A DNA stretch of 43,204 bases from UHGV virus genome UHGV-0865506; one strand, 5' to 3'. This DNA is from a virus. This document shows, piece by piece, positions 5,730 through 41,614 of the stretch; the stretch's first letter is position 1, and the number at the start of each line of letters is the position of its first letter. A program made the position numbers and the translations under genes. The notes under the pieces are model-generated. The model did no database searches. It was not told where the DNA came from and was given only the letters and a program-made list of their open reading frames with translations.

Positions 5730-6002
5730 ATGATTTATCAACTATACCGCGCCATCGACAGGCGGGATAACACCGAGGCGATATGGCTGTTGCGTGCGCC
5801 GTCCGGTGCACACCAGATGGAAGAGATGGCGTACTTAGGCAAAGTACCGCGGCCTAAAGATATAGGCCGTCACGTGTCGCAGATTAAGCGCACGACTTTC
5901 GCCAAACCTGACTTTTATGTCTTCGAGTCGATGTATGGATGGGCTATGCACCGCCAGCACCAGACACAACATTTAATTGACCAGTGGGAGAACAGGGTAT
6001 GA
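5730..6002 (+). CDS. hypothetical protein
   Basis: Track ORF 5715..6002 with start moved to the internal Met that follows the repeated TGAGGGTCGGAAATATG initiation region. Confidence 0.5.
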   Translation: MIYQLYRAIDRRDNTEAIWLLRAPSGAHQMEEMAYLGKVPRPKDIGRHVSQIKRTTFAKPDFYVFESMYGWAMHRQHQTQHLIDQWENRV

Positions 6003-7264
6003 TTTTAAAGGAACGCGGCGGCAATAACGACGTACACGCTTTACTGTCGCCGTCAGGCGCTAAGAAGTGGCTAAGTTGCGCCGCATCGCTGGCTTGTGAA
6101 AAAGATATTCCTAACACGTCGGGTAAATCCGCCGTTACGGGGACAGCGTGTCACACAATAGCTGAGGTACATCTAAACCAGTACATCAAAGGCACTGCGC
6201 TGCCGTTAGAGCGTGAAGTCGGTGCGTACGTGCTGGATGAGGGTAAAGGACAGATTAAGGCACTAATCAGTCCGATGAAAGGTGCGGTACTGATTACGGC
6301 TGACATGATTGAGCAGGTGCGCAAGTATACCGACTACTGTAAACCGATTATCGATGTAGCGACTTACGCCAAGCTGGAAATGCGTGTCAATCTTACTGAG
6401 GTATTGCATCCGGGATACATCCATAGCCCCGGTGGGAGGCAAGAAGAAATTCAAACCTTCGGAACCGCTGACCTTGTTGCCGTGCAGGAACTGGCCAACA
6501 CTGATGAGCACATGTTAATTATCGGCGACCTGAAAACCGGACGGCATCGTGTCGAAGCGAAAGAAAACAAGCAGCTTATGCTTTACGCTCTCGGTGTTTA
6601 TCGCCGACTCAAGAGACGTTATAACATAACAACCGTTCGTCTGGTCATCTTCCAGCCGTACGCGGGCGGTGCGTCGGAGTGGGACATCTCGGTTGAAGGT
6701 CTGGAACTGTTCGCTAAGTTCGCCCAGAAGCGCGCACTGTTAGCGCTTGATGCGTATTTCCGCGGTAAGAAGAACCTGAAAGCGTCGGACTTCAAGCCGT
6801 CGGTAGATGGTTGTCAGTGGTGTCGGTTCTCAGAACAGTGCGCAGCGCGTACAAAAACCGTTAACGCGGTACTGGCGGAAGAACTGGAGGACGACTTTGC
6901 TCTTGAAATGACACCTGAGCAACTCGTAGCTGAGTATGAGAAGTTGCCGTTGTTGCGCCAGCACATCGACAAGGTTGAGAAAGCTATGGCTGCCGCGCTG
7001 CATTCGGGTAAGAAAGTTCCGGGGTACAAGCTGGTTGAAGGTCGCCCGGGTAATCGTGCATGGAAAGACACTGATGCGGTATTCGAGAAGTACGGTACTA
7101 TGCTGCAAAAGGTAGTGCTCATGACGCCAACCGAAGCTGTTAAAGTTGTGCCGGAAGAAGAACTGAAAGACTTCATTACTCGTAAGCCAGGAGCGCCGTG
7201 CGTCACAACGGCAGATGACAAACGGCCTGAGTGGAATCAGGTAACAGAGGAGGATTTGGAATGA
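5999..7264 (+). CDS. PD-(D/E)XK nuclease, Cas4/RecB-like (DUF2800-type)
   Basis: N-terminal LSPSGAKKWLSC, central IIGDLKTG and C-terminal cysteine cluster CQWCRFSEQC are typical of Cas4-like nucleases; ATGA coupling to the upstream gene. Confidence 0.7.
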   Translation: MILKERGGNNDVHALLSPSGAKKWLSCAASLACEKDIPNTSGKSAVTGTACHTIAEVHLNQYIKGTALPLEREVGAYVLDEGKGQIKALISPMKGAVLITADMIEQVRKYTDYCKPIIDVATYAKLEMRVNLTEVLHPGYIHSPGGRQEEIQTFGTADLVAVQELANTDEHMLIIGDLKTGRHRVEAKENKQLMLYALGVYRRLKRRYNITTVRLVIFQPYAGGASEWDISVEGLELFAKFAQKRALLALDAYFRGKKNLKASDFKPSVDGCQWCRFSEQCAARTKTVNAVLAEELEDDFALEMTPEQLVAEYEKLPLLRQHIDKVEKAMAAALHSGKKVPGYKLVEGRPGNRAWKDTDAVFEKYGTMLQKVVLMTPTEAVKVVPEEELKDFITRKPGAPCVTTADDKRPEWNQVTEEDLE

Positions 7265-7761
7265 GTTTAGTTCGGGAGCGTTTCATTTATGAAAACGGGA
7301 AACTAATCTATCGCCACAATACAAAAAGAATGTTAGCTGGTCAGGAGGCAGGAAGCCTCCACCATTCAGGGTATGTGCAGATCTACATTAATCGTAAGTC
7401 CTACCAAAGAAGCCGTTTAATATGGGAGTACCACAACGGCCCTATACCTGAAGGGTTTGAGGTGGACCATATAAATGCGATAAGAAATGATGACAGGATA
7501 GAGAATCTCCAGTTAATCGCTCATAGCGATAATGTGGCTAAAGGCGGCATTCAAACCGGAAGAAGTCATAACAAAAGCGGGTACACTGGCGTGTTTTGGC
7601 GCAAAAGCCATGGTAAATGGCAGGCTGGAATTACCGTAAACGGGCAATATCGTTACCTTGGACTATTCGAAACTCCTGAACAGGCTAACGTGGCGAGAAA
7701 GAATTTTGAAAGTAATTTGCTAAAAGAAGTTGACTACCGAATAGCGAACTATTATAGTTAA
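7261..7761 (+). CDS. HNH homing endonuclease with AP2 DNA-binding domain
   Basis: HNH motifs (YHNGPIPEGFEVDHINAIRNDDRIENLQLIAHSDN) followed by an AP2-like segment (GVFWRKSHGKWQAGITVNGQYRYLGLFETPEQA). Confidence 0.8.
   Translation: MSLVRERFIYENGKLIYRHNTKRMLAGQEAGSLHHSGYVQIYINRKSYQRSRLIWEYHNGPIPEGFEVDHINAIRNDDRIENLQLIAHSDNVAKGGIQTGRSHNKSGYTGVFWRKSHGKWQAGITVNGQYRYLGLFETPEQANVARKNFESNLLKEVDYRIANYYS
7730..7758 (+). promoter_or_regulatory. sigma70 promoter TTGACT-N17-TATAGT embedded in the 3' end of the HNH gene
   Basis: Near-consensus hexamers; part of a 32-bp repeat shared with 11631..11660. Confidence 0.5.
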
Positions 7762-7821
7762 ATCACTGGCCGGGCAGTTCCCGGAGTAAACTTAAAATCT
7801 AAACTTAATGAGGGCTGAACT

Positions 7822-8448
7822 GTGGGACTGAAATTAAATCTGCGTAAAGTAAACACTGCATGGGTTAACGTATTTGAACGCGAAAAAGACCGTGAAAACG
7901 ATGATGGCTCAATCACTAAAGGCCAGTACAGCGCGACTATCATCCTGCAGTCTGGCCATGCTCAAATCGACGCACTCTACGACACTGTTTACGCTGTAGT
8001 TGAAGAAGCGTTAGGTGCAGCCGCCGCCGAGAAATGGATGAAGTCCAACTACGGCGAAGGTAAGCACATGGATAAATGCGCGATTAAAGATATTGCCGAG
8101 CGTGACAATCCGTTTGAAGACTTCCCTGAAGGCTTCTACTTCAAAGCGAAGGCACAGAAACAACCGCTGATTGTAACATCTAAAAAAGGTGAGACTCAGG
8201 TAGAGCAGGATTTCAATGTAGACGGCGAACAGATTGAAGGCGAACAGGTTTACAGCGGCTGCGTCGCTAACGTAAGCGTTGAAATCTGGTTCAGCCAGAA
8301 ATACAAAGTACTCGGTGTTAACCTGCTGGCAATTAAGTACGTTGGTGAAGGTAAAGCGTTTGGTGGTTCTAAAGTAGCTGCGAGTGTCGAGGACCTGGAA
8401 GACGACGAAGAAGATGAAGCACCGCGCCGCGAACGTCGTCGCCGTTAA
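7822..8448 (+). CDS. single-stranded DNA-binding protein-like (DUF2815-type)
   Basis: GTG start with GAGGG Shine-Dalgarno; acidic C-terminal tail DLEDDEEDEAP typical of SSBs; sits between Cas4-like nuclease and DNA polymerase as in the conserved replication module. Confidence 0.55.
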   Translation: MGLKLNLRKVNTAWVNVFEREKDRENDDGSITKGQYSATIILQSGHAQIDALYDTVYAVVEEALGAAAAEKWMKSNYGEGKHMDKCAIKDIAERDNPFEDFPEGFYFKAKAQKQPLIVTSKKGETQVEQDFNVDGEQIEGEQVYSGCVANVSVEIWFSQKYKVLGVNLLAIKYVGEGKAFGGSKVAASVEDLEDDEEDEAPRRERRRR

Positions 8449-8468
8449 TATCTGAACCAATTTAACTA

Positions 8469-8491
8469 AGGCCCTTCATTGGGCCTTTTTA
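8469..8491 (+). terminator. rho-independent terminator
   Basis: Hairpin AGGCCC-TTCATT-GGGCCT followed by TTTTT. Confidence 0.6.
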
Positions 8492-8502
8492 CCGGAGTCA
8501 GA

Positions 8503-8976
8503 ATGGAACATATAAAAGATTTTCTTAGTTATAACCGAGAAACCGGAATATTCACATGGATACAACCTACGTACAGACGAGGGAGACCCGGAGACATTGC
8601 GGGATGTATGAATAGTAGCGGATACTGGCGCATACCCTACATGGGTAGATACTACATGGCCCATAGGCTTGCTTGGTTTTTCGAGTACGGCGAATGGCCT
8701 GAGGGGCCTCTTGACCATATAAACCGTGACAGGTTAGACAATAGGATTTCTAACCTAAGGAAAGCAACCACAGCGGATAATGTGCGAAACGCTAAAAATA
8801 AGGGAGCTAGAACGGGAGTTAAGGGAGTAGTTAAAAACGGCAACCGGTTTTATGGGCGTGTACATTTTAACTACAAAAGTTATAACGCTGGTAGCTACGG
8901 AACTCTTGAAGAAGCAGAAAGCGCTGTAAAGAAATTAAGAGAAAAACTGCATAAGGAATTTTATTGCCATGACTAG
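8503..8976 (+). CDS. HNH homing endonuclease with AP2-like domain (second copy)
   Basis: HNH motifs (EGPLDHINRDRLDNRISNLR) plus AP2-like GVKGVVKNGNRFYGRVHF; start at internal Met with GGAG Shine-Dalgarno. Confidence 0.8.
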   Translation: MEHIKDFLSYNRETGIFTWIQPTYRRGRPGDIAGCMNSSGYWRIPYMGRYYMAHRLAWFFEYGEWPEGPLDHINRDRLDNRISNLRKATTADNVRNAKNKGARTGVKGVVKNGNRFYGRVHFNYKSYNAGSYGTLEEAESAVKKLREKLHKEFYCHD

Positions 8977-11173
8977 TTTATTGTACCTGGATACCGAGAC
9001 ATTCTCCGAAGCAGACTTAAAGAAAGTCGGGTCGTATGCGTATGCGGAGCACCCAACGACAGAGGTTATAATTTGTACGTATGCCGTTGATGACGGTCCT
9101 GTAGAAGTATGGGATTGCACTTCCGAATCAGTAATGCCGATAAGCCTCCGTGTGGCTCTCCGTAATGTTATGCGTGGACGTATGAAAATCGTGGGCCATA
9201 ACTTTTTAATGTTCGATCGCCTAATCATGAAACACTGCTGGGGCTTCGATATACCGGTAAGCAACACCATTGACACGATGATTTGGGCGTTTCGTCACGC
9301 GCTGCCAGGTTCACTTGATGCGCTGTGTGAAGTGCTTGGCGTGTCCGCTGATAATGCGAAAGACAAACGCGGCAAGGCGCTGATTCAGCGTTTCTCTAAA
9401 CCGACACCGAAGAACTACAAAATTCGCCGCTACACCGCCGAAACACACCCTGACGAGTGGGCGCTGTTCATCAAGTACGCCGTGAGTGACATTACTGCTA
9501 TGCGTGAAGTCTTCCATAAGCTTCCGCGGTGGGGTAACTCTGAGTTTGAAGACCGTGTACTGGAACTGGACCAGTTAATCAATGACCGTGGGTTTAAGGT
9601 TGACGTTGCACTGGCGGAAGCCGCGATTGAAGCCGTGGAGAAACACAAAGCACAGTTACAGGAAGAAGCCCAACGCAAATACGGCGGCTCGCTTACGGGT
9701 AAAGACTTTCTGCCGATTCTGCGTGAACTTGCCCCAGCGCACCACATACACAATGCGCAGAAGTCGACGCTTAACGACCTGTTGGTGGACGATGATTTAC
9801 CTGACGACGCCCGCACGATTATCGAAATGCGCCTCGGGGCCGCGTCCACAGCGTCAACGAAATATAACCCGCTGCTGTTGGGCCGCTCGTCGGACGACCG
9901 ACGCCGCGGTTGTTTACAGTACGGCGGGGCAAAACGTACTTTGCGGTGGGCGGGTAAAGGCTTTCAGCCGCAGAACCTGGCCCGCGGGTACTATCATGAT
10001 GATGAACTGGATAAAGGCATTTCAGCGTTACTTAAGGGTCGTGCTCACCGCCGATTTGACGTAGCCAAGCTGACGGCATCGACGGTCCGTAGCTGCATCA
10101 TACCGGAAGCCGGGCACAAGTTTGTCGTAGCTGATTACTCTAACGTCGAAGGTCGTGGGTTAGCGTGGTTAGCAGGAGAAGAAACCGCGCTCGATACGTT
10201 CCGTGCCGGACTGGATATTTACTGTGTAACCGCAGGTAAGATGTTTGGCATGGACCCTGACGATATTAAGAAAAACTTTAAGGAAATCAGACAGATAGGC
10301 AAGGCTTGCGAACTGGGCCTCGGCTACGAGGGGGGTGTCGGAGCGTTCGTTACGTTTGCTAAAAACTTAGGTCTTGACCTTATTGAGATGGCAAAAACAA
10401 TGGACGGGACTTTCCCTGACCACATCTGGGCCGCTACCGCGAGAGGATATGAATGGGCGCGCATCCAGGAAGCCAAGCGCCCCCCACATCCAGGTGAAAA
10501 GGACGATAGGCCATCGTATATTCTTGATAAAAAAGTATGGCGTACTTGTGATGCTATCAAGCGTATGTGGCGCGAGTCACACCCGGAAACAGTAGCGTTC
10601 TGGCGCGACCTTAAAGACGGAATTTTAGCCGCTGTGCGTAATCCTGGCCGTGAATTTTGGGCGGGGGCACACTTGCGCAGGAATGGGGAAAGGGCTATCC
10701 GTATATGGCGTACTGTAGAATTTGATTCATCCGGCAGGAAGGTTCCTGGTTGGTGGTTGTGTATGGAGCTGCCGTCAGGCCGTATCCTCTCGTATCCAGG
10801 AATAGGCGTTAGTGTGACTGTGACAAAGGAAACAGACGAAGGCGGACGGGTAAACACGGATGTGCGAATCAAGTATCAGGGTGAAAACCAGTTAACCCGC
10901 CAATGGACTACCCTGTACACCCATGGCGGCAAAGCCTGCGAAAACATTGTCCAGGCGTTGTGTCGTGATTTACTCGCGTATGCGATGATTAATGTTGAGG
11001 GTGGCGGGTACCCCATCGTGCTTTCGGTACACGATGAACTGGTATGTGAAACTCCCGACACACCTGAGTACACGGTGGCCGAACTGGAAAAATTAATGTG
11101 CGCATTGCCGGAGTGGGCCGAGGGGTTCCCTCTTGTAGCAGAAGGCGCGGAGATGATGCGTTATGCCAAGTAA
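8969..11173 (+). CDS. family A DNA polymerase with 3'-5' exonuclease domain
   Basis: Exo motif LYLDTETF; Pol A motif A (VVADYSNVEGRGLA), motif B (RQIGKACELGLGYEGG), motif C (VHDELV). Confidence 0.9.
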   Translation: MTSLLYLDTETFSEADLKKVGSYAYAEHPTTEVIICTYAVDDGPVEVWDCTSESVMPISLRVALRNVMRGRMKIVGHNFLMFDRLIMKHCWGFDIPVSNTIDTMIWAFRHALPGSLDALCEVLGVSADNAKDKRGKALIQRFSKPTPKNYKIRRYTAETHPDEWALFIKYAVSDITAMREVFHKLPRWGNSEFEDRVLELDQLINDRGFKVDVALAEAAIEAVEKHKAQLQEEAQRKYGGSLTGKDFLPILRELAPAHHIHNAQKSTLNDLLVDDDLPDDARTIIEMRLGAASTASTKYNPLLLGRSSDDRRRGCLQYGGAKRTLRWAGKGFQPQNLARGYYHDDELDKGISALLKGRAHRRFDVAKLTASTVRSCIIPEAGHKFVVADYSNVEGRGLAWLAGEETALDTFRAGLDIYCVTAGKMFGMDPDDIKKNFKEIRQIGKACELGLGYEGGVGAFVTFAKNLGLDLIEMAKTMDGTFPDHIWAATARGYEWARIQEAKRPPHPGEKDDRPSYILDKKVWRTCDAIKRMWRESHPETVAFWRDLKDGILAAVRNPGREFWAGAHLRRNGERAIRIWRTVEFDSSGRKVPGWWLCMELPSGRILSYPGIGVSVTVTKETDEGGRVNTDVRIKYQGENQLTRQWTTLYTHGGKACENIVQALCRDLLAYAMINVEGGGYPIVLSVHDELVCETPDTPEYTVAELEKLMCALPEWAEGFPLVAEGAEMMRYAK

Positions 11174-11294
11174 ACTGATTATAGCGGTACTGGCAGGGTT
11201 TGCTGCCGGTGTCTACTGTCACGAGGGCCAATACGGCATGATGGCTGCTGTATTAGGTATGTTCATCGCAATTCATCTGTGGGTGATGGAATGA
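11163..11294 (+). CDS. small hydrophobic protein (about 43 aa), candidate
   Basis: Hand-derived ORF overlapping the polymerase stop; sequence MPSKLIIAVLAGFAAGVYCHEGQYGMMAAVLGMFIAIHLWVME. Confidence 0.25.
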   Translation: MPSKLIIAVLAGFAAGVYCHEGQYGMMAAVLGMFIAIHLWVME

Positions 11295-11389
11295 AAATTT
11301 ACTGGTTCTACGAAGAAGACTGTCGAATCTGCCCGCGCTGTGGTATCGAGCATACGAAACGGGAGGGGTGCATAGATGAGTACGCCTGA
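11291..11389 (+). CDS. small Cys-rich zinc-ribbon-like peptide (about 32 aa), candidate
   Basis: Hand-derived ORF MKIYWFYEEDCRICPRCGIEHTKREGCIDEYA, coupled by ATGA overlaps on both sides. Confidence 0.25.
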   Translation: MKIYWFYEEDCRICPRCGIEHTKREGCIDEYA

Positions 11390-11663
11390 GGGGCGCATCC
11401 AGAAATACGCAAAAGAGCGATTCGAGGCTATCGGCGGCCTCGTACGCAAATTGTCGTACGAAAATAGAGCGGGCGCTCCTGACCTGCTGGTAATTCTCCC
11501 CGGCGGCATCATCTGGTTCGTCGAGGTTAAGAAAGACGAAAACACGAAGCCAGACCCACACCAGCTACGAGAGCACGAGCGGATGCGTAAACGTGGAGCA
11601 AATGTTTTTGTCGTTGGTTCGTTTAAACAGGTTGACGACCTAATAGCGAACTATTATAGTTAG
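11376..11663 (+). CDS. VRR-NUC domain nuclease
   Basis: GAPDLLV...WFVEVKKD matches the PD-(D/E)XK core of VRR-NUC proteins; position after DNA polymerase is typical. Confidence 0.7.
   Translation: MSTPEGRIQKYAKERFEAIGGLVRKLSYENRAGAPDLLVILPGGIIWFVEVKKDENTKPDPHQLREHERMRKRGANVFVVGSFKQVDDLIANYYS
11632..11660 (+). promoter_or_regulatory. sigma70 promoter TTGACG-N17-TATAGT embedded in the 3' end of the VRR-NUC gene
   Basis: Part of the 32-bp repeat shared with 7730..7758. Confidence 0.5.
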
Positions 11664-11693
11664 CCATACACCAACAATATAAGGAATTGAGAA

Positions 11694-11885
11694 ATGAAAC
11701 ACGAATATGACCGTAAACCAGCACGTGACATCGTACCTGGCGACATGATTTTCAACGTTAAGACACGTCGCCCTGTTGCCGTTGATACGGTGTTCGTCGA
11801 GTCGAACGGTAAACTGGTTATCGAAGATGTAACTGGTAACGTTACGGCGTTCGGGCGTAAAGAGCTGGTGCTGGTGGCAAAATGA
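11694..11885 (+). CDS. hypothetical protein
   Basis: Track ORF with AAGGAA Shine-Dalgarno. Confidence 0.5.
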   Translation: MKHEYDRKPARDIVPGDMIFNVKTRRPVAVDTVFVESNGKLVIEDVTGNVTAFGRKELVLVAK

Positions 11886-12565
11886 TTGTCTGGTCATTGT
11901 TTGACGGTTCGGGCCTTATGGCCCAACCGTGGGCAGAAGCGGGCCATACTTGCTATTGTTTCAACTACGATGGTGCCGACCACGGCGACTACGCGCGATT
12001 GGGCGCAAAAGTTGAACACGAGAACATCCACTATATAAACGCGTGGATTGATAATAAGTTCGACTTCGAGGTTTCGCCAGATATTATTTTTGCGTTCCCT
12101 CCTTGCACAGATTTAGCCGTTAGTGGCGCGGCGCATTTCGAAACGAAGCGTAAGAAGAACCCAACGTTTCAGGTAGAGGCTGTTATCACATGCAAAGTGG
12201 CGGCACGCCTGGCTAAAAGGTATAACGTACCTTATATGATTGAGAACCCAGTTAGCGTCCTCTCGTCTTTGTGGCGTAAGCCCGATTATGTGTTCAATCC
12301 TTACGAATACGGCGGCTATCTACCGGAAGACGATACGCATCCAATGTTCCCTGAATACATAAAACCCCGAGACGCGTACCCTAAAAAGACATGTCTTTGG
12401 ACGGGTAATGGTTTCGTAATGCCGGTTAAGTCAGGTGTTGCCGTGGGTGATGGGTATTCTGACCAGCACAACAAACTTGGCGGTAAATCAGTGCGGACAA
12501 AAACAATCCGCAGCCTTACTCCTCGGGGTTTCGCAAAAGCAGTTTACGAGGCTAATCATGTCTAA
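11882..12565 (+). CDS. DNA (cytosine-5)-methyltransferase-like protein, compact, no obvious target-recognition domain
   Basis: LFDGSG (motif I-like), FAFPPCTDLAVSG (PC catalytic motif IV-like), MIENPVS (ENV motif VI-like); only 227 aa. Confidence 0.5.
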   Translation: MIVWSLFDGSGLMAQPWAEAGHTCYCFNYDGADHGDYARLGAKVEHENIHYINAWIDNKFDFEVSPDIIFAFPPCTDLAVSGAAHFETKRKKNPTFQVEAVITCKVAARLAKRYNVPYMIENPVSVLSSLWRKPDYVFNPYEYGGYLPEDDTHPMFPEYIKPRDAYPKKTCLWTGNGFVMPVKSGVAVGDGYSDQHNKLGGKSVRTKTIRSLTPRGFAKAVYEANHV

Positions 12566-23792: not shown

Positions 23793-24932
23793 ATGGCCCA
23801 GAAGAAAATAACCGACGAACAGTTACAGGAAGAATTGAACGCCGGGATGAAGAATGTAGACATCGCCCGTAAATACGGCATCTCAGACCGCGTAATTCGT
23901 ATCCGTAAAGCGAAGCTGGCAAAGAAAGGCGTAGGTCACGGGCGTGATGTTAGTCACCTTGTACCGGACGGCTACAAGATTAAAGGGACGTCGTCCCTGG
24001 TGGACGAGTTTGGCAACACTAAGTTGCAATGGGTTAAGACCGACACCGATGCCGAACGTCAGGTCGAGTTGATGAAAGCCGTGATTGAAGGTATGAAGTC
24101 AGAGATTACACCGGTTGCGCCTGTTAAACCTGTTCGCGCCAAACGTGACGATAAACTGCTCAATCTCTACACTGTATCTGATTTCCATCTCGGTATGCTT
24201 GCATGGGCTGACGAGAGCGGCGATGACTGGGATATGAAGATTGCAGAAGACCTGTTCTCCCGCTGGTTCGATGCCGCGTTTCAGAAAGCACCGGATGCGG
24301 GGACTGGGGTTATTAACCTGCTGGGCGACTTCGCGCACTTCGATAGTCTTGATGCCGTTACCCCTGAGTCGCGTCATGTGTTAGACGCCGATACTCGCTA
24401 TCAGAAACTAGTTCGCTACATGATTCGTATGGTGCGTCGTGTTGTCGATATGGCGCTTGTTAAACATCACACAGTCAAACTTTTAATAGTTCAAGGTAAC
24501 CACGACCCTGTAGGCTCTGTATGGCTCGCCGAAATGTTCTGTACATTGTACGACAACGAACCTCGCGTATTTGTGGACACCTCCCCAGACGTATACAAGA
24601 TGGTCCAGCACGGGAAAACTACGCTATTCATGCATCATGGACACCGTGCGAGATTCGACGCCATAGAGTCAGTAATGATTTCTAAATTCCGTAAGGCTTT
24701 TGGAGAAAGCACATACAGCTACGCTCATGTAGGGCATCTACATCATCAGAAATTAGTAGAAAGCCGCAATATGGTAGTCGAACAACACCGAACCCTGGCT
24801 GCGAAAGATGCTTACGCATCGCGAGGGGGCTGGATGTCCGGTCGTAGTGCTAACGTGATAACTTATAGTGCCGAATATGGGGAGGTGGCACGTTTAACAA
24901 TATCACCAGAAATGATAGGGGGTATAAATTGA
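23793..24932 (+). CDS. calcineurin-like metallophosphoesterase with N-terminal helix-turn-helix-like region
   Basis: Motifs DFHLG, GDFAHFD, GNHD, HHGH and GHLHH match the metallophosphoesterase signature; N-terminus resembles an HTH. Confidence 0.65.
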   Translation: MAQKKITDEQLQEELNAGMKNVDIARKYGISDRVIRIRKAKLAKKGVGHGRDVSHLVPDGYKIKGTSSLVDEFGNTKLQWVKTDTDAERQVELMKAVIEGMKSEITPVAPVKPVRAKRDDKLLNLYTVSDFHLGMLAWADESGDDWDMKIAEDLFSRWFDAAFQKAPDAGTGVINLLGDFAHFDSLDAVTPESRHVLDADTRYQKLVRYMIRMVRRVVDMALVKHHTVKLLIVQGNHDPVGSVWLAEMFCTLYDNEPRVFVDTSPDVYKMVQHGKTTLFMHHGHRARFDAIESVMISKFRKAFGESTYSYAHVGHLHHQKLVESRNMVVEQHRTLAAKDAYASRGGWMSGRSANVITYSAEYGEVARLTISPEMIGGIN

Positions 24933-25402
24933 CATGGAATGATGTTTACGAATACGAAAACGGGAATCTTTACGCTAAGGACAGCGTAAACCCTAAGTAC
25001 CCGAAAGGACGTAAAGTAGGGTATGTGGACCAACGAGGGTATGTAAGAACTAAACTAGGGTCAAAAATGACATTCGCCCACAGAATTATATGGGAAATGT
25101 TTAACGGAGCTATACCAGAAGGCAAGGAGATTGACCATATAAACGGTGTGAAAAGCGATAACCGTATAGAGAATCTTCGACTGTGTGACCGGCGCATAAA
25201 CTGCAAAAATGCAGCAAAGCGCAGGGATAACTCGTCTGGCGTTACCGGGGTTAGTAAAACATATAACGGTAAGTGGGTAGTTCAAATTCAATATAACGGA
25301 AATAGAATAGCCAAGCGTTTCGACAACAAAGAAGACGCCGTAAGATATGCCGAAGGTTTTTACAAAGAAAAGAAAGACTTTACTGAGAGGCACGGAAAAT
25401 GA
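24929..25402 (+). CDS. HNH homing endonuclease with AP2-like domain (third copy)
   Basis: HNH motifs (EIDHINGVKSDNRIENLR) plus AP2-like GVSKTYNGKWVVQIQYNGNRIAKRF. Confidence 0.8.
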   Translation: MTWNDVYEYENGNLYAKDSVNPKYPKGRKVGYVDQRGYVRTKLGSKMTFAHRIIWEMFNGAIPEGKEIDHINGVKSDNRIENLRLCDRRINCKNAAKRRDNSSGVTGVSKTYNGKWVVQIQYNGNRIAKRFDNKEDAVRYAEGFYKEKKDFTERHGK

Positions 25403-25629
25403 CTTCAAAATACAACCGCACAATGACAAACACCCACGGCAGCACCATGACAGTAGACGTCTATGATGTGCTACGCGCCTTCGATATCCGTGACCCGGCG
25501 CTACAGCATGCGTTAAAGAAACTGCTGTGTATGGGTCTGCGCGGTCACAAAGACACCGGAACCGACTTAGCAGAAGCAATTGAAAGTCTGGAGAAGTTAC
25601 GGGAGTACAGGAGTAATATTGATGAGTGA
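25399..25629 (+). CDS. hypothetical protein
   Basis: Track ORF with ATGA overlap. Confidence 0.45.
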   Translation: MTSKYNRTMTNTHGSTMTVDVYDVLRAFDIRDPALQHALKKLLCMGLRGHKDTGTDLAEAIESLEKLREYRSNIDE

Positions 25630-40877: not shown

Positions 40878-41318
40878 TTATCCTAATAGTTGTTTGGTAA
40901 TAATCTTGCCACCTGTGTCAGTGTTAAACTTCGACGCCACAGCTACGCCACCATGTGCAGAATACCCGCATTCCATAGCCGCTAGCGCATAAGGCGCACC
41001 GGAGCCGACGGCGGCAAAGCCGTCTGCGATCGGAATAACCGAACTAAGCTCACAATCCCATGATTTGTAGAACTCCACCTTACACAACGTTTCGATGTCT
41101 TTAACCCACACCAAAGCAGAGAAATCAAAATCATAATGCTTAGGCACTAAAATACTATCGTCCTTCACTAAAAGGATTCCAACCCCAGCATCACCAGCCA
41201 CCCCGATAACAACAAATTCGTTCTCATATATCTTTGTGTCTGTGTTGTAATAGTTACTTCCACTCACAACACGGGTGTCACATGCCATCGTCTTTCCGTC
41301 AAACGCGATAGTAGTCAT
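40878..41318 (-). CDS. HslV-like N-terminal nucleophile hydrolase
   Basis: N-terminal MTTIAF (Thr after Met), KIYENEFVVIGVAGDAG and AVGSGAPYALAAM parallel the HslV motifs. Confidence 0.5.
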   Translation of the reverse strand: MTTIAFDGKTMACDTRVVSGSNYYNTDTKIYENEFVVIGVAGDAGVGILLVKDDSILVPKHYDFDFSALVWVKDIETLCKVEFYKSWDCELSSVIPIADGFAAVGSGAPYALAAMECGYSAHGGVAVASKFNTDTGGKIITKQLLG

Positions 41319-41614
41319 TTATGTCTCCAGATGTATTGTCGTCTCTGCGGTTTCGTCGGAATATCTTCATATCCCAGCGATTTCCAGTATTTAAATAGCC
41401 GATTAGCGATTGCTGCGCGTTCCTTTGTTTTAAACTCACCGAGATTCACGGCCTTCCCGTTCTGGAATCCGCAGGCACGGACAGCTTTGCGTCTGGCCTG
41501 AATCTCGGGGTACAGCGCATTACGGCGGCGCTTGTATATTCGTGTTTTAGCTCTCGGCGACAGCGGCACAAGGCCGCTTCGCTTCAGGATGTCAGTTGCC
41601 AGGCTCATTTTCAT
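41315..41614 (-). CDS. basic protein with AP2-like DNA-binding segment
   Basis: ACGFQNGKAVNLGEFKTKERAAIANRLF resembles the AP2 segments of the three HNH endonucleases. Confidence 0.4.
   Translation of the reverse strand: MKMSLATDILKRSGLVPLSPRAKTRIYKRRRNALYPEIQARRKAVRACGFQNGKAVNLGEFKTKERAAIANRLFKYWKSLGYEDIPTKPQRRQYIWRHK

What the first reader, a model, noticed from the sequence alone, without database searches (positions are those of the whole stretch)
7261..8976. Three free-standing AP2-HNH homing endonucleases plus a stand-alone AP2-like protein
HNH endonucleases with AP2-type DNA-binding segments occur at 7261..7761, 8503..8976 and 24929..25402, two of them flanking the SSB-like gene next to the DNA polymerase. 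A separate 99-aa basic protein (41315..41614) carries a similar AP2-like segment without the nuclease motifs. Their density and position next to conserved genes suggest active homing.
Basis: partly seen in the sequence, partly recalled or inferred. Interest (0 to 1): 0.45.

Follow-up and report, generated by a model that had tools for sequence, protein, structure and literature searches.

The report
Mobile HNH-AP2 homing endonuclease genes
This phage genome carries three small selfish nuclease genes of a well-known type, each missing from most related phages and sitting at a recombination boundary, so the finding is real but ordinary; the separate 99-aa AP2-like protein is a conserved core gene, not a mobile one.

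Summary
The window is a Kagunavirus-like (Guernseyvirinae) siphophage genome. All three ORFs exist as described. Each is a full-length phrog_99 protein with a Pfam HNH_3 domain and an intact D-H...N...N motif. Profile and fold evidence show a C-terminal AP2 DNA-binding domain, an architecture long known in phages (HNN-AP2, IPA-HNH).

- HNH1 is in 1 of 479 related records that share its flanks.
- HNH2 is in 6 of 324.
- HNH3 is in 8 of 421, and all eight are Salmonella or Shigella phages.

Empty alleles with base-exact junctions exist at all three sites. Each gene drags a linked flank tract:
- HNH1 carries a variant SSB promoter and leader.
- HNH2 carries the first ~300 bp (about 83 codons) of polA.
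- HNH3 carries ~500 bp of Jerseyvirus-type metallophosphatase sequence in an otherwise Kagunavirus gene.

This pattern is the signature of homing with co-conversion. dN/dS of 0.02-0.12 argues the genes are functional. Cleavage itself is untested.

The 99-aa protein is AP2-like only at family-profile level and lacks the first strand. It is conserved in about 495 records, so it is a core gene and probably a DNA-binding protein.

Verdict: new members of a known kind, low-to-moderate interest.

The parts
5984..7264 (+). DUF2800 / PD-(D/E)XK exonuclease gene. It is the conserved left flank of insertion site 1.
   Evidence: Pfam DUF2800 E 5e-66 and PDDEXK_1. It is conserved in relatives at 82-89%.
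7261..7761 (+). HNH1: free-standing HNH(N)-AP2 endonuclease gene, 166 aa.
   Evidence: HNH_3 E 8e-18 and AP2 at 24.7-27.2 bits, below the cutoff. phrog_99 E 2e-51. phmmer against PDB hits only the AP2 factor WRI1, E 0.006. Only one other record, Esher4, carries it, at 98% nt identity.
7263..7728 (+). The 466-bp segment absent from empty alleles at site 1.
   Evidence: In KMB36, TPH05A, P AB-2017 and FSL SP-101 the DUF2800 stop is followed about 5 bp later by the SSB promoter. SHAK7693 has a different HNH-AP2 gene (34% aa identity) at the same junction.
7730..7758 (+). Sigma-70-like promoter of the SSB-polA unit (TTGACT-17-TATAGT). The 3' end of HNH1 reads through it.
   Evidence: It is the only promoter-like site in 7000-9200. 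It is conserved as TTGACA-17-TATAGT in HNH1-less genomes. The 7729-7821 segment is 100% identical to Esher4 but 76-82% to HNH1-less genomes.
7822..8448 (+). Enc34/gp2.5-like ssDNA-binding protein gene between HNH1 and HNH2.
   Evidence: Pfam Enc34_ssDNA-bd E 2.6e-14. It is 92-94% identical in all relatives regardless of HNH status.
8468..8490 (+). Terminator-like hairpin (AAGGCCC-UUCAUU-GGGCCUU, then a U run) that forms the left edge of site 2.
   Evidence: RNA fold -17.4 kcal/mol, z -3.1. It is annotated as a terminator in fBC-Eco01. It is conserved in HNH2+ and HNH2- genomes, and they diverge immediately after it. The simple terminator scan did not flag it.
8503..8976 (+). HNH2: free-standing HNH(N)-AP2 endonuclease gene, 157 aa.
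   Evidence: HNH_3 E 2e-15. phrog_99 E 1e-57. The family profile hits I-HmuI (1.3e-7) and AP2 domains. AF2 pLDDT 93.6 with a beta-beta-alpha core and an AP2 fold. It is present in 6 records. dN/dS 0.02-0.04.
8969..9295 (+). The 5' ~300 bp of polA, an allele that co-segregates perfectly with HNH2.
   Evidence: 91-97% identical in HNH2+ genomes but 52-81% in HNH2- genomes, converging after about 9296. There are two discrete N-terminal protein alleles over residues 1 to about 83, including the ExoI motif, LDTETF against LDFETF. No HNH2-less record carries the linked allele.
8969..11173 (+). Family-A DNA polymerase gene. It is the right flank of site 2 and is the intein-less allele.
   Evidence: Pfam DNA_pol_A and the 3'-5' exonuclease domain. 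KMB36 and SP-101 carry a 299-aa intein-like insert after residue 446.
23793..24932 (+). Metallophosphatase gene. It is the left flank of site 3 and is a mosaic.
   Evidence: Weak Pfam Metallophos hits. 23800-24399 is 86-95% identical to Kagunaviruses and 54-85% to Jerseyvirus PST-H1.
24400..24914 (+). A Jerseyvirus-type tract of about 500 bp linked to HNH3. It is a one-sided co-conversion-like tract.
   Evidence: 91-100% identical to Salmonella phage PST-H1 but 67-82% to Kagunaviruses ZCEC5, JSSK01 and fBC-Eco01.
24929..25402 (+). HNH3: free-standing HNH(N)-AP2 endonuclease gene, 157 aa, TTG start.
   Evidence: HNH_3 E 5e-22. phrog_99 E 3e-50. 94-98% nt identity to PST-H1 and S4lw. It is present in 8 records, all Salmonella or Shigella phages. 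It is absent, with a 4-bp gene overlap restored, in ZCEC5, JSSK01 and fBC-Eco01.
25399..25629 (+). A 76-aa conserved ORF that forms the right flank of site 3.
   Evidence: 100% identical to ZCEC5 and 73% to PST-H1 from the first base after HNH3. phrog_2452.
41315..41614 (-). Stand-alone basic AP2-like protein, a core gene that is not mobile. Its start is probably at 41608.
   Evidence: phrog_9632, unknown function, E 2e-53. It is conserved in 495 phage records. The family profile hits WRI1 at 9.4e-6. hhalign to the AP2 part of the HNH family gives 97% probability, E 1e-10. The window copy lacks the first strand. The AF2 model has pLDDT 68 with a beta-hairpin plus helix at 45-79.

Best explanation
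HNH1, HNH2 and HNH3 are three independent free-standing homing endonuclease genes of the HNH(N)-AP2 class. The catalytic core is I-HmuI-like and the C-terminal DNA-binding domain is AP2. The three share only 33-38% identity with each other.

Proposed mechanism, step by step:
1. Each gene sits exactly at a gene boundary, translationally coupled to its neighbours or directly after a terminator.
2. In a mixed infection, the enzyme is proposed to cut or nick the HNH-less allele of a related phage close to the insertion site. The proposed targets are the SSB promoter/leader for HNH1, the first ~250 bp of polA for HNH2, and the 3' ~500 bp of the metallophosphatase gene for HNH3.
3. The break is repaired from the HNH-bearing genome. 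That copies the nuclease gene together with the adjacent tract, whose sequence differences make the carrier allele immune.

Shown here: the domain architecture, intact catalytic residues, purifying selection, rarity among relatives, exact empty junctions, and linked flank tracts that include one inter-genus mosaic.

Inferred: cleavage activity, the position of each target, nicking versus double-strand cutting, and immunity of the linked alleles.

The 99-aa protein is a separate matter. It is a conserved core protein with an N-terminally truncated AP2-like module, most likely a small DNA-binding or regulatory protein.
For: Architecture:
- HNH_3 lies well above the Pfam cutoff in all three, and all three match phrog_99 full length.
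- The family profile hits the HNH homing endonuclease I-HmuI (1u3e, E 1.3e-7) and plant AP2 domains.
- The AF2 model has pLDDT 93.6 with beta-beta-alpha and AP2 folds.
- D-H, N and N are invariant in all three.

Sporadic distribution:
- tblastn finds copies at 95% identity or more in 1 (HNH1), 6 (HNH2) and 7 plus one at 90-95% (HNH3) records.
- The flanks are found in 421-479 records.

Empty alleles and exact junctions are shown.

Recurrent use of the same site: SHAK7693 carries a 34%-identical HNH-AP2 gene at precisely the HNH1 junction.

Linked tracts:
- HNH1 and its surroundings are 96-100% identical to Esher4 over about 7200-7921, while more distal flanks are 84-91%.
- The polA N-terminal allele co-segregates perfectly with HNH2.
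- The Jerseyvirus-type tract 24400-24914 ends abruptly at the HNH3 3' junction.

Function is maintained: no stops are present and dN/dS is 0.02-0.12.

Precedent: HNN-AP2 and IPA-HNH homing genes are described in Xanthomonas and ICP1-like phages, including nuclease genes at recombination boundaries (PMC2248197, PMC10448857).
Against: - No cleavage or nicking data exist for these proteins or close relatives, and the recognition sites are unknown.
- HNH2 has a dS (0.25-0.51) as deep as the neighbouring SSB gene. Among its seven carriers it looks like an old, vertically kept module rather than a recent invader.
- Sites 1 and 2 also hold unrelated small ORFs in other relatives. These boundaries are therefore general hot spots for accessory genes, and some of the mosaicism could arise without a nuclease.
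- Only 7-8 genomes were aligned in detail. The wider counts come from BLAST coverage classes.
Confidence: 0.8

Rival explanations
1. The HNH genes are passive accessory cargo ('morons'). They are shuffled by ordinary homologous or illegitimate recombination at gene boundaries, and the nuclease plays no part in its own spread.
For: Sites 1 and 2 carry unrelated small ORFs of 51-92 aa in other relatives. Guernseyvirinae genomes are generally mosaic (PMC8425127).
Against: Mosaic breakpoints coincide with an HNH gene at three independent loci. The tracts are one-sided and end at the gene's edge. The genes keep intact catalytic residues under strong purifying selection, which passive cargo with no function would not. 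A second, different HNH-AP2 gene occupies exactly the same junction.
Confidence: 0.1
2. The HNH proteins are domesticated and serve the phage. Possible roles are nicking during replication or recombination next to SSB, polA and the exonuclease, exclusion of competing phages, or help with packaging as in the HK97 gp74-type HNH.
For: HNH2 has dN/dS as low as SSB and a comparable dS. Two of the three genes lie inside the replication module.
Against: Each gene is absent from more than 95% of related phages that replicate without it. None lies next to the terminase genes. They lack the Cys-box, Zn-type HNH of packaging-associated enzymes (PMC2248197). Competitor exclusion would work by the same cleavage mechanism, so it is not truly distinct from homing.
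Confidence: 0.07
3. The 99-aa AP2-like ORF is a decayed remnant of a former HNH-AP2 homing gene, like the AP2-only fragments described in Xanthomonas phages. On this view it is not a functional protein.
For: It lacks the first AP2 strand and any nuclease motif. Degenerate AP2-only remnants are documented in Xoo phages (PMC2248197).
Against: It is conserved in about 495 records across Kagunavirus and Jerseyvirus, at 90-97% within Kagunavirus. N-terminal (MSLATDILK) and C-terminal (DIPxKPxxRxY) motifs are nearly invariant among homologues that are only 35-45% identical. That is the pattern of a functional core gene.
Confidence: 0.1

Closest known systems
HNN-AP2 / 'IPA-HNH' free-standing homing endonuclease genes of phages (Xanthomonas phages Xp10, OP1 and Xop411; ICP1-like Vibrio phages; also T1, T5, RB43)
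   Same: The architecture is the same: an HNH_3-type H-N-N core without Cys boxes plus a C-terminal AP2 domain. There are several diverged copies per genome, they lie next to essential genes, they vary between related phages, and they sit at recombination boundaries (PMC2248197, PMC10448857; here).
   Different: The host lineage differs (Kagunavirus-like siphophage). The specific insertion sites and linked tracts mapped here were not found described in the papers searched. No experimental data exist for these members.
I-HmuI (PDB 1u3e), the intron-encoded HNH homing endonuclease of Bacillus phage SPO1
   Same: The N-terminal sheet plus the HNH catalytic region align with the family profile at E 1.3e-7. 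D-H, N and N fall in equivalent positions.
   Different: [quoted passage not shown] From my own knowledge of the literature it is a nicking enzyme. Whether these proteins nick or cut both strands is unknown.
Phage T4 free-standing homing endonucleases (Seg proteins, MobE)
   Same: They are intergenic genes next to conserved genes. They spread by cleaving the endonuclease-less allele in mixed infection, with co-conversion of flanking markers (PMC2790892 abstract). This matches the linked tracts seen here.
   Different: Seg proteins are GIY-YIG enzymes. MobE is an HNH enzyme, but no AP2 domain was examined or shown for it here. Homing has been shown genetically for T4 and only inferred here.
Plant AP2/ERF DNA-binding domains (AtERF1 1gcc, TEM1 7et4, WRI1 7wq5)
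   Same: The fold is a three-stranded sheet plus a helix. The HNH2 model superposes at 0.9 A rmsd, and both the HNH family profile and the 99-aa family profile hit these structures.
   Different: Those are eukaryotic transcription factors. The window proteins score below Pfam's AP2 cutoff, and the 99-aa protein lacks the first strand.

Membership tests
HNH / His-Me finger endonuclease (Pfam HNH_3, PF13392) | Profile match above the curated cutoff. | tested here: met
   64.2, 56.5 and 77.7 bits against a cutoff of 24.8. phrog_99 full length.
HNH / His-Me finger endonuclease (Pfam HNH_3, PF13392) | Catalytic D-H plus the two Asn residues (H-N-N variant) are conserved, with a beta-beta-alpha core. 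| tested here: met
   D69, H70, N82 and N91 (HNH1 numbering) are invariant in all three. They align to the DH...NLR...N of I-HmuI. The AF2 model of HNH2 has E70-72, E85-87 and H90-95. The fold was modelled for HNH2 only.
AP2 DNA-binding domain (PF00847) in the three HNH proteins | Pfam match at the gathering score. | tested here: not met
   HNH1 scores 24.7-27.2 bits, below 33.3. HNH2 and HNH3 have no hit.
AP2 DNA-binding domain (PF00847) in the three HNH proteins | Homology to AP2 domains by family profile, and the three-strand-plus-helix fold. | tested here: met
   Profile A2 hits WRI1 at 1.2e-8, TEM1 at 8.8e-6, ERF096 at 0.002 and AtERF1 at 0.02. About 37 of 120 homologues carry PF00847. 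Foldseek's top hits are AP2 structures at rmsd 0.9 A over 44-48 columns, although the whole-chain E-values are weak at 0.01-0.4.
Free-standing homing endonuclease gene | It is a separate ORF that is not inside an intron or intein. | tested here: met
   All three are intergenic ORFs with their own Shine-Dalgarno sequence and start codon, sitting between complete flanking genes.
Free-standing homing endonuclease gene | Presence/absence polymorphism at an otherwise conserved site, with empty alleles. | tested here: met
   1 of 479, 6 of 324 and 8 of 421 records carry the genes. Empty junctions were aligned base by base.
Free-standing homing endonuclease gene | Co-conversion of flanking sequence, or a linked resistant allele. 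| tested here: met
   Linked tracts are seen at all three sites. That they confer resistance is inferred.
Free-standing homing endonuclease gene | Site-specific cleavage or nicking of the gene-less allele, and super-Mendelian inheritance. | not testable with these tools
   This needs enzyme assays and phage crosses.
Terminase-associated packaging HNH (HK97 gp74 type) | The gene lies next to the terminase or cos region and is conserved across relatives. | tested here: not met
   The genes lie in the replication module and upstream of the tail genes. The terminase region homologous to the terminase genes of fBC-Eco01 is at about 35.9-37.7 kb. The genes are absent from most relatives.
AP2-like domain in the 99-aa protein | Pfam AP2 match for the window's own sequence. 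| tested here: not met
   No hit even at E 10. Ten of 44 family members give weak AP2 hits, best E 1e-5.
AP2-like domain in the 99-aa protein | Profile-level homology to AP2. | tested here: met
   Profile A4 hits WRI1 at 9.4e-6 and TEM1 at 0.008. hhalign of A4 against A2 gives 97% probability, E 1.1e-10, over 46 columns. The window copy covers only strands 2-3 and the helix.
AP2-like domain in the 99-aa protein | AP2 fold in a structure model. | tested here: inconclusive
   The AF2 model has pLDDT 68 with a beta-hairpin and helix at 45-79. Foldseek finds no significant match. AP2 structures appear only among the non-significant hits.

The most novel reading that the evidence does not exclude
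The conserved 99-aa protein family (phrog_9632 and phrog_4947) is a domesticated AP2 DNA-binding module captured from an HNH-AP2 homing endonuclease. It now serves as a core regulator of Guernseyvirinae, or as a protector of homing target sites. Its invariant N-terminal MSLATDILK and C-terminal DIPxKPxxRxY motifs would act as partner-binding peptides. [quoted passage not shown]
Probability: 0.2. Interest if true: 0.45.

Novelty: new member of a known kind. Interest (0 to 1): 0.27.

Why it matters
The finding adds three clearly mapped examples of HNH-AP2 homing genes. Each has an exact insertion junction, an empty allele and a linked flank tract, in a phage group widely used for therapy and biocontrol work.

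The flank tracts narrow the search for each enzyme's target to a few hundred bases. That makes cleavage assays and phage crosses straightforward to design.

The HNH3 mosaic documents sequence flow between Salmonella-type Jerseyviruses and an E. coli-type Kagunavirus. No new principle is involved.

The AP2-like assignment for a conserved protein of unknown function is a small annotation gain.

Tried and rejected
- Small ORFs at sites 1 and 2 in HNH-less relatives (57, 78, 51 and 92 aa) were tested as possible decayed HNH-AP2 remnants. BLASTP found no similarity and Pfam found no hits, so they are unrelated accessory genes.
- The fold search with the 99-aa model gave no significant hit because the model is low-confidence. 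The AP2 call for that protein therefore rests on profiles only.
- Several long multi-repeat proteins returned by the exhaustive search with the 99-aa query were checked. One is a true multi-AP2 protein (P0163). The rest are repetitive proteins with other domains (MucBP, INT_rpt and others) and were not used.
- Pfam found nothing in the 299-aa polA insert of relatives. Its intein nature rests on the terminal residues only.
- The simple terminator scan did not flag the hairpin after the SSB gene. RNA folding and the fBC-Eco01 annotation support it.
- Other variable segments of the window were screened for further nuclease genes, and none was found.
- The packaging-HNH idea was rejected on position and distribution.


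Full report
**What the window is.** The 5.3-kb stretch around the finding matches 459 phage records, nearly all Salmonella or Escherichia Guernseyvirinae. The best match is Escherichia phage fBC-Eco01 at 91%. The 99-aa protein is 90-97% identical to Kagunavirus proteins and only 30-37% to Jerseyvirus ones. The window is therefore a Kagunavirus-like siphophage genome of 43.2 kb with 50.4% G+C.

**Observation.** All four ORFs exist at the stated coordinates.
- HNH1 (7261..7761) starts at an ATG that overlaps the stop of the DUF2800/PD-(D/E)XK exonuclease gene.
- HNH2 (8503..8976) starts 13 nt after a terminator-like hairpin, and its stop overlaps the polA ATG.
- HNH3 (24929..25402) starts at a TTG that overlaps the stop of a metallophosphatase gene. 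Its stop overlaps the ATG of the next ORF.

All three hit Pfam HNH_3 at 56-78 bits against a cutoff of 24.8. All three match phrog_99 'HNH endonuclease' end to end. A six-frame motif scan and screens of other variable segments found no further nuclease genes. The three proteins are only 33-38% identical to each other, so they are distinct lineages and not recent duplicates. D-H, N and N of the H-N-N motif are invariant.

**AP2 domain in the HNH proteins.** Pfam AP2 is sub-threshold in HNH1 (24.7-27.2 bits against 33.3) and silent in HNH2 and HNH3. More sensitive tests are positive.
- HNH1 alone finds only the plant AP2 factor WRI1 in the PDB, at E 0.006.
- A profile of 46 family members hits I-HmuI with its N-terminal/HNH part (E 1.3e-7). 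Its C-terminal 55 positions hit WRI1, TEM1, ERF096 and AtERF1 (1.2e-8 to 0.03).
- About a third of HNH2 homologues carry precomputed PF00847 plus PF13392.
- An AlphaFold2 model of HNH2 (pLDDT 93.6) shows a beta-beta-alpha core followed by three strands and a helix. Foldseek's best matches are AP2 domain structures at 0.9 A rmsd.

**Test of the homing idea: distribution.** tblastn against 50,697 phage records finds near-identical copies of HNH1 in 1 record, HNH2 in 6, and HNH3 in 8, of which 7 are at 95% identity or more and one at 90-95%. The flanks of each site are present in far more records: 479 for site 1, 324 for site 2 and 421 for site 3. All eight HNH3 carriers are Salmonella or Shigella phages. 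No other E. coli Kagunavirus in the collection has it.

**Junctions.** I fetched 14 related loci and aligned them.

Site 1:
- KMB36, TPH05A, P AB-2017 and FSL SP-101 lack window 7263..7728. In them the exonuclease stop is followed about 5 bp later by the SSB promoter (TTGACA-17-TATAGT).
- XY2 and fBC-Eco01 hold unrelated small ORFs there.
- SHAK7693 holds a different HNH-AP2 gene, 34% identical to HNH1, at exactly the same junction.

Site 2:
- Esher4, XY2 and SP-101 go from the conserved terminator hairpin to polA in about 40 bp.
- Other relatives hold 51-aa or 92-aa unrelated ORFs.

Site 3:
- ZCEC5 and JSSK01 have the metallophosphatase gene and the 76-aa ORF overlapping by 4 bp, with nothing between them.
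- fBC-Eco01 also lacks HNH3, although another small ORF follows its metallophosphatase gene.

**Linked tracts.** Sliding identity shows that each HNH gene marks a switch in relatedness.
- **HNH1.** With Esher4, the only other carrier, identity is 96-100% from about 7200 to 7921. This tract covers the gene, a variant promoter and leader, and the first 100 nt of the SSB gene. More distal flanks are 84-91%.
- **HNH2.** The SSB gene is 92-94% identical to every relative. The first ~300 bp of polA is 91-97% identical in HNH2 carriers and 52-81% in non-carriers, and the two groups converge after about 9296. At protein level there are two discrete alleles of polA residues 1 to about 83, including the ExoI motif. 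In the whole collection, the linked allele is found only in the six HNH2 carriers.
- **HNH3.** The metallophosphatase gene is Kagunavirus-like up to about 24400. It is then 91-100% identical to Salmonella Jerseyvirus PST-H1 up to the HNH3 gene, which is itself 94-98% identical. From the first base after HNH3 the sequence is 100% ZCEC5-like and 73% PST-H1-like.

This one-sided mosaic is what repair of a break upstream of the insertion, templated by a Jerseyvirus-type donor, would leave.

**Are the genes functional?** No copy has internal stops. dN/dS is 0.12 for HNH1, 0.02-0.04 for HNH2 and 0.10 for HNH3, against 0.02-0.07 for SSB. HNH1 is a recent arrival, with dS 0.06 to Esher4 against 0.31 for SSB. 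HNH2 has dS 0.25-0.51, as deep as SSB, so it is an old module kept under strong constraint in a minority of genomes.

**Mechanism.**

Shown:
- architecture and intact active-site residues;
- constraint on the coding sequence;
- rarity among relatives;
- exact empty sites;
- recurrent occupation of one site by different HNH-AP2 genes;
- linked tracts at all three sites.

Inferred:
- In mixed infection the enzymes cut or nick HNH-less alleles within the tract regions.
- Repair from the carrier genome copies the gene and tract.
- The tract's sequence differences protect the carrier.

The resemblance to I-HmuI, which I recall from the literature as a nicking enzyme, suggests nicking, but this is untested.

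Expression signals fit tight control:
- HNH3 has a TTG start.
- HNH2 is placed behind a terminator-like hairpin (annotated as a terminator in fBC-Eco01).
- HNH1 is translationally coupled to the exonuclease gene.

**Rivals.** Passive shuffling of accessory genes is possible, because the same boundaries hold unrelated small ORFs. It does not explain three coincident breakpoints, strong constraint on the nuclease, or repeated HNH-AP2 occupation of one junction. A domesticated housekeeping or packaging role is unlikely, because more than 95% of relatives lack each gene and none is near the terminase genes.

**The 99-aa protein.** It belongs to phrog_9632, of unknown function. It is present in about 495 records, so it is a core gene and not a mobile one. 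An exhaustive search found 55 cluster representatives. More distant members show the full 'GV...W.A...LG.F.T.ERA..A' pattern, while the Kagunavirus copies lack the first strand.
- The family profile hits WRI1 (9.4e-6) and TEM1 (0.008).
- It aligns to the AP2 part of the HNH family at 97% probability, E 1e-10.
- Ten of 44 members give weak Pfam AP2 hits.
- The structure model is low-confidence (pLDDT 68) and its fold search is inconclusive.

The protein is basic, with pI 11.2. Its N- and C-terminal motifs are nearly invariant across homologues that are only 35-45% identical. I read it as a small DNA-binding protein with a truncated AP2-like module. Descent from a homing endonuclease is possible but unproven.

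**Comparison with what is known.** HNH(N)-AP2 free-standing endonuclease genes have been described in Xanthomonas phages, T1, T5, RB43 and others. Those descriptions include multiple copies per genome and AP2-only remnants (PMC2248197). They have also been described as 'IPA-HNH' homing genes that sit near essential genes and at boundaries of genetic exchange (PMC10448857). Genome papers on Jerseyvirus and Kagunavirus phages already list homing endonucleases and inteins as accessory mobile elements, and note an HNH gene in phage P AB-2017 that phages G and L lack (PMC8425127, PMC5582158). The finding is therefore a set of new members of a known kind. What is added here is the base-level mapping of sites, empty alleles and tracts.

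**Verdict.** Novelty is low and interest is 0.27.

Noticed in passing
window ~10306-10309 (polA residue 446); L002:4217-5112, L007:3659-4554: polA of E. coli phage KMB36 and Salmonella phage FSL SP-101 carries a nearly identical 299-aa in-frame insert. It starts CLHRHT and ends LVAHN|C, which are canonical intein termini. It sits in the conserved QIGKA|CELGLGYEGG motif. The window has the intein-less allele. Pfam finds no domain in the insert.
   Followed up: partly
L012:543-1034 (Escherichia phage SHAK7693): A different HNH-AP2 gene occupies exactly the HNH1 junction, between the exonuclease stop and the SSB promoter. It is 34% identical to HNH1 and 52% identical to the HNH_3 gene that fBC-Eco01 carries upstream of DUF2800.
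   Followed up: yes
window ~6002-6068; L001:32914-33336; L004:400-747: The boundary upstream of the DUF2800 exonuclease gene is another variable site. fBC-Eco01 has an HNH_3 gene there and TPH05A has a 115-aa ORF. The window has neither.
   Followed up: partly
window ~11200-11880; L006:4800-5058, L002:6176-6296: XY2 and KMB36 carry annotated HNH endonuclease genes just downstream of polA, where the window has only small ORFs. This is a further HNH landing site in relatives.
   Followed up: no
window 11882..12565 (+): A 227-aa ORF matches phrog_757 (DNA methyltransferase, E 2e-87) but has no Pfam hit. It lies in a segment with no counterpart in fBC-Eco01.
   Followed up: partly
window 40878..41318 (-): A 146-aa HslV-family peptidase-like ORF (phrog_1040, E 9e-35) lies between the AP2-like gene and the lysis genes. 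It is absent from fBC-Eco01.
   Followed up: partly
window 41315..41614 (-) and homologues P0161-P0209: The 99-aa family keeps an almost invariant N-terminal MSLATDILK and a C-terminal DIPxKPxxRxY motif, while the middle is only 35-45% identical and varies in length. No explanation was found. They may be short partner-binding motifs.
   Followed up: no
window 7761-7800 (5' leader of the SSB gene): A conserved CCGGG-CAGTT-CCCGG inverted repeat lies just downstream of the SSB promoter in all relatives. It may be a leader hairpin or an operator.
   Followed up: no
OR594180.1 (L012 record header): Phage SHAK7693 is filed in GenBank under Autographiviridae/Kayfunavirus and named 'vB_EcoM'. Its replication module is nevertheless collinear with Kagunavirus genomes and 81-86% identical to them, so the record's taxonomy looks wrong.
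   Followed up: no
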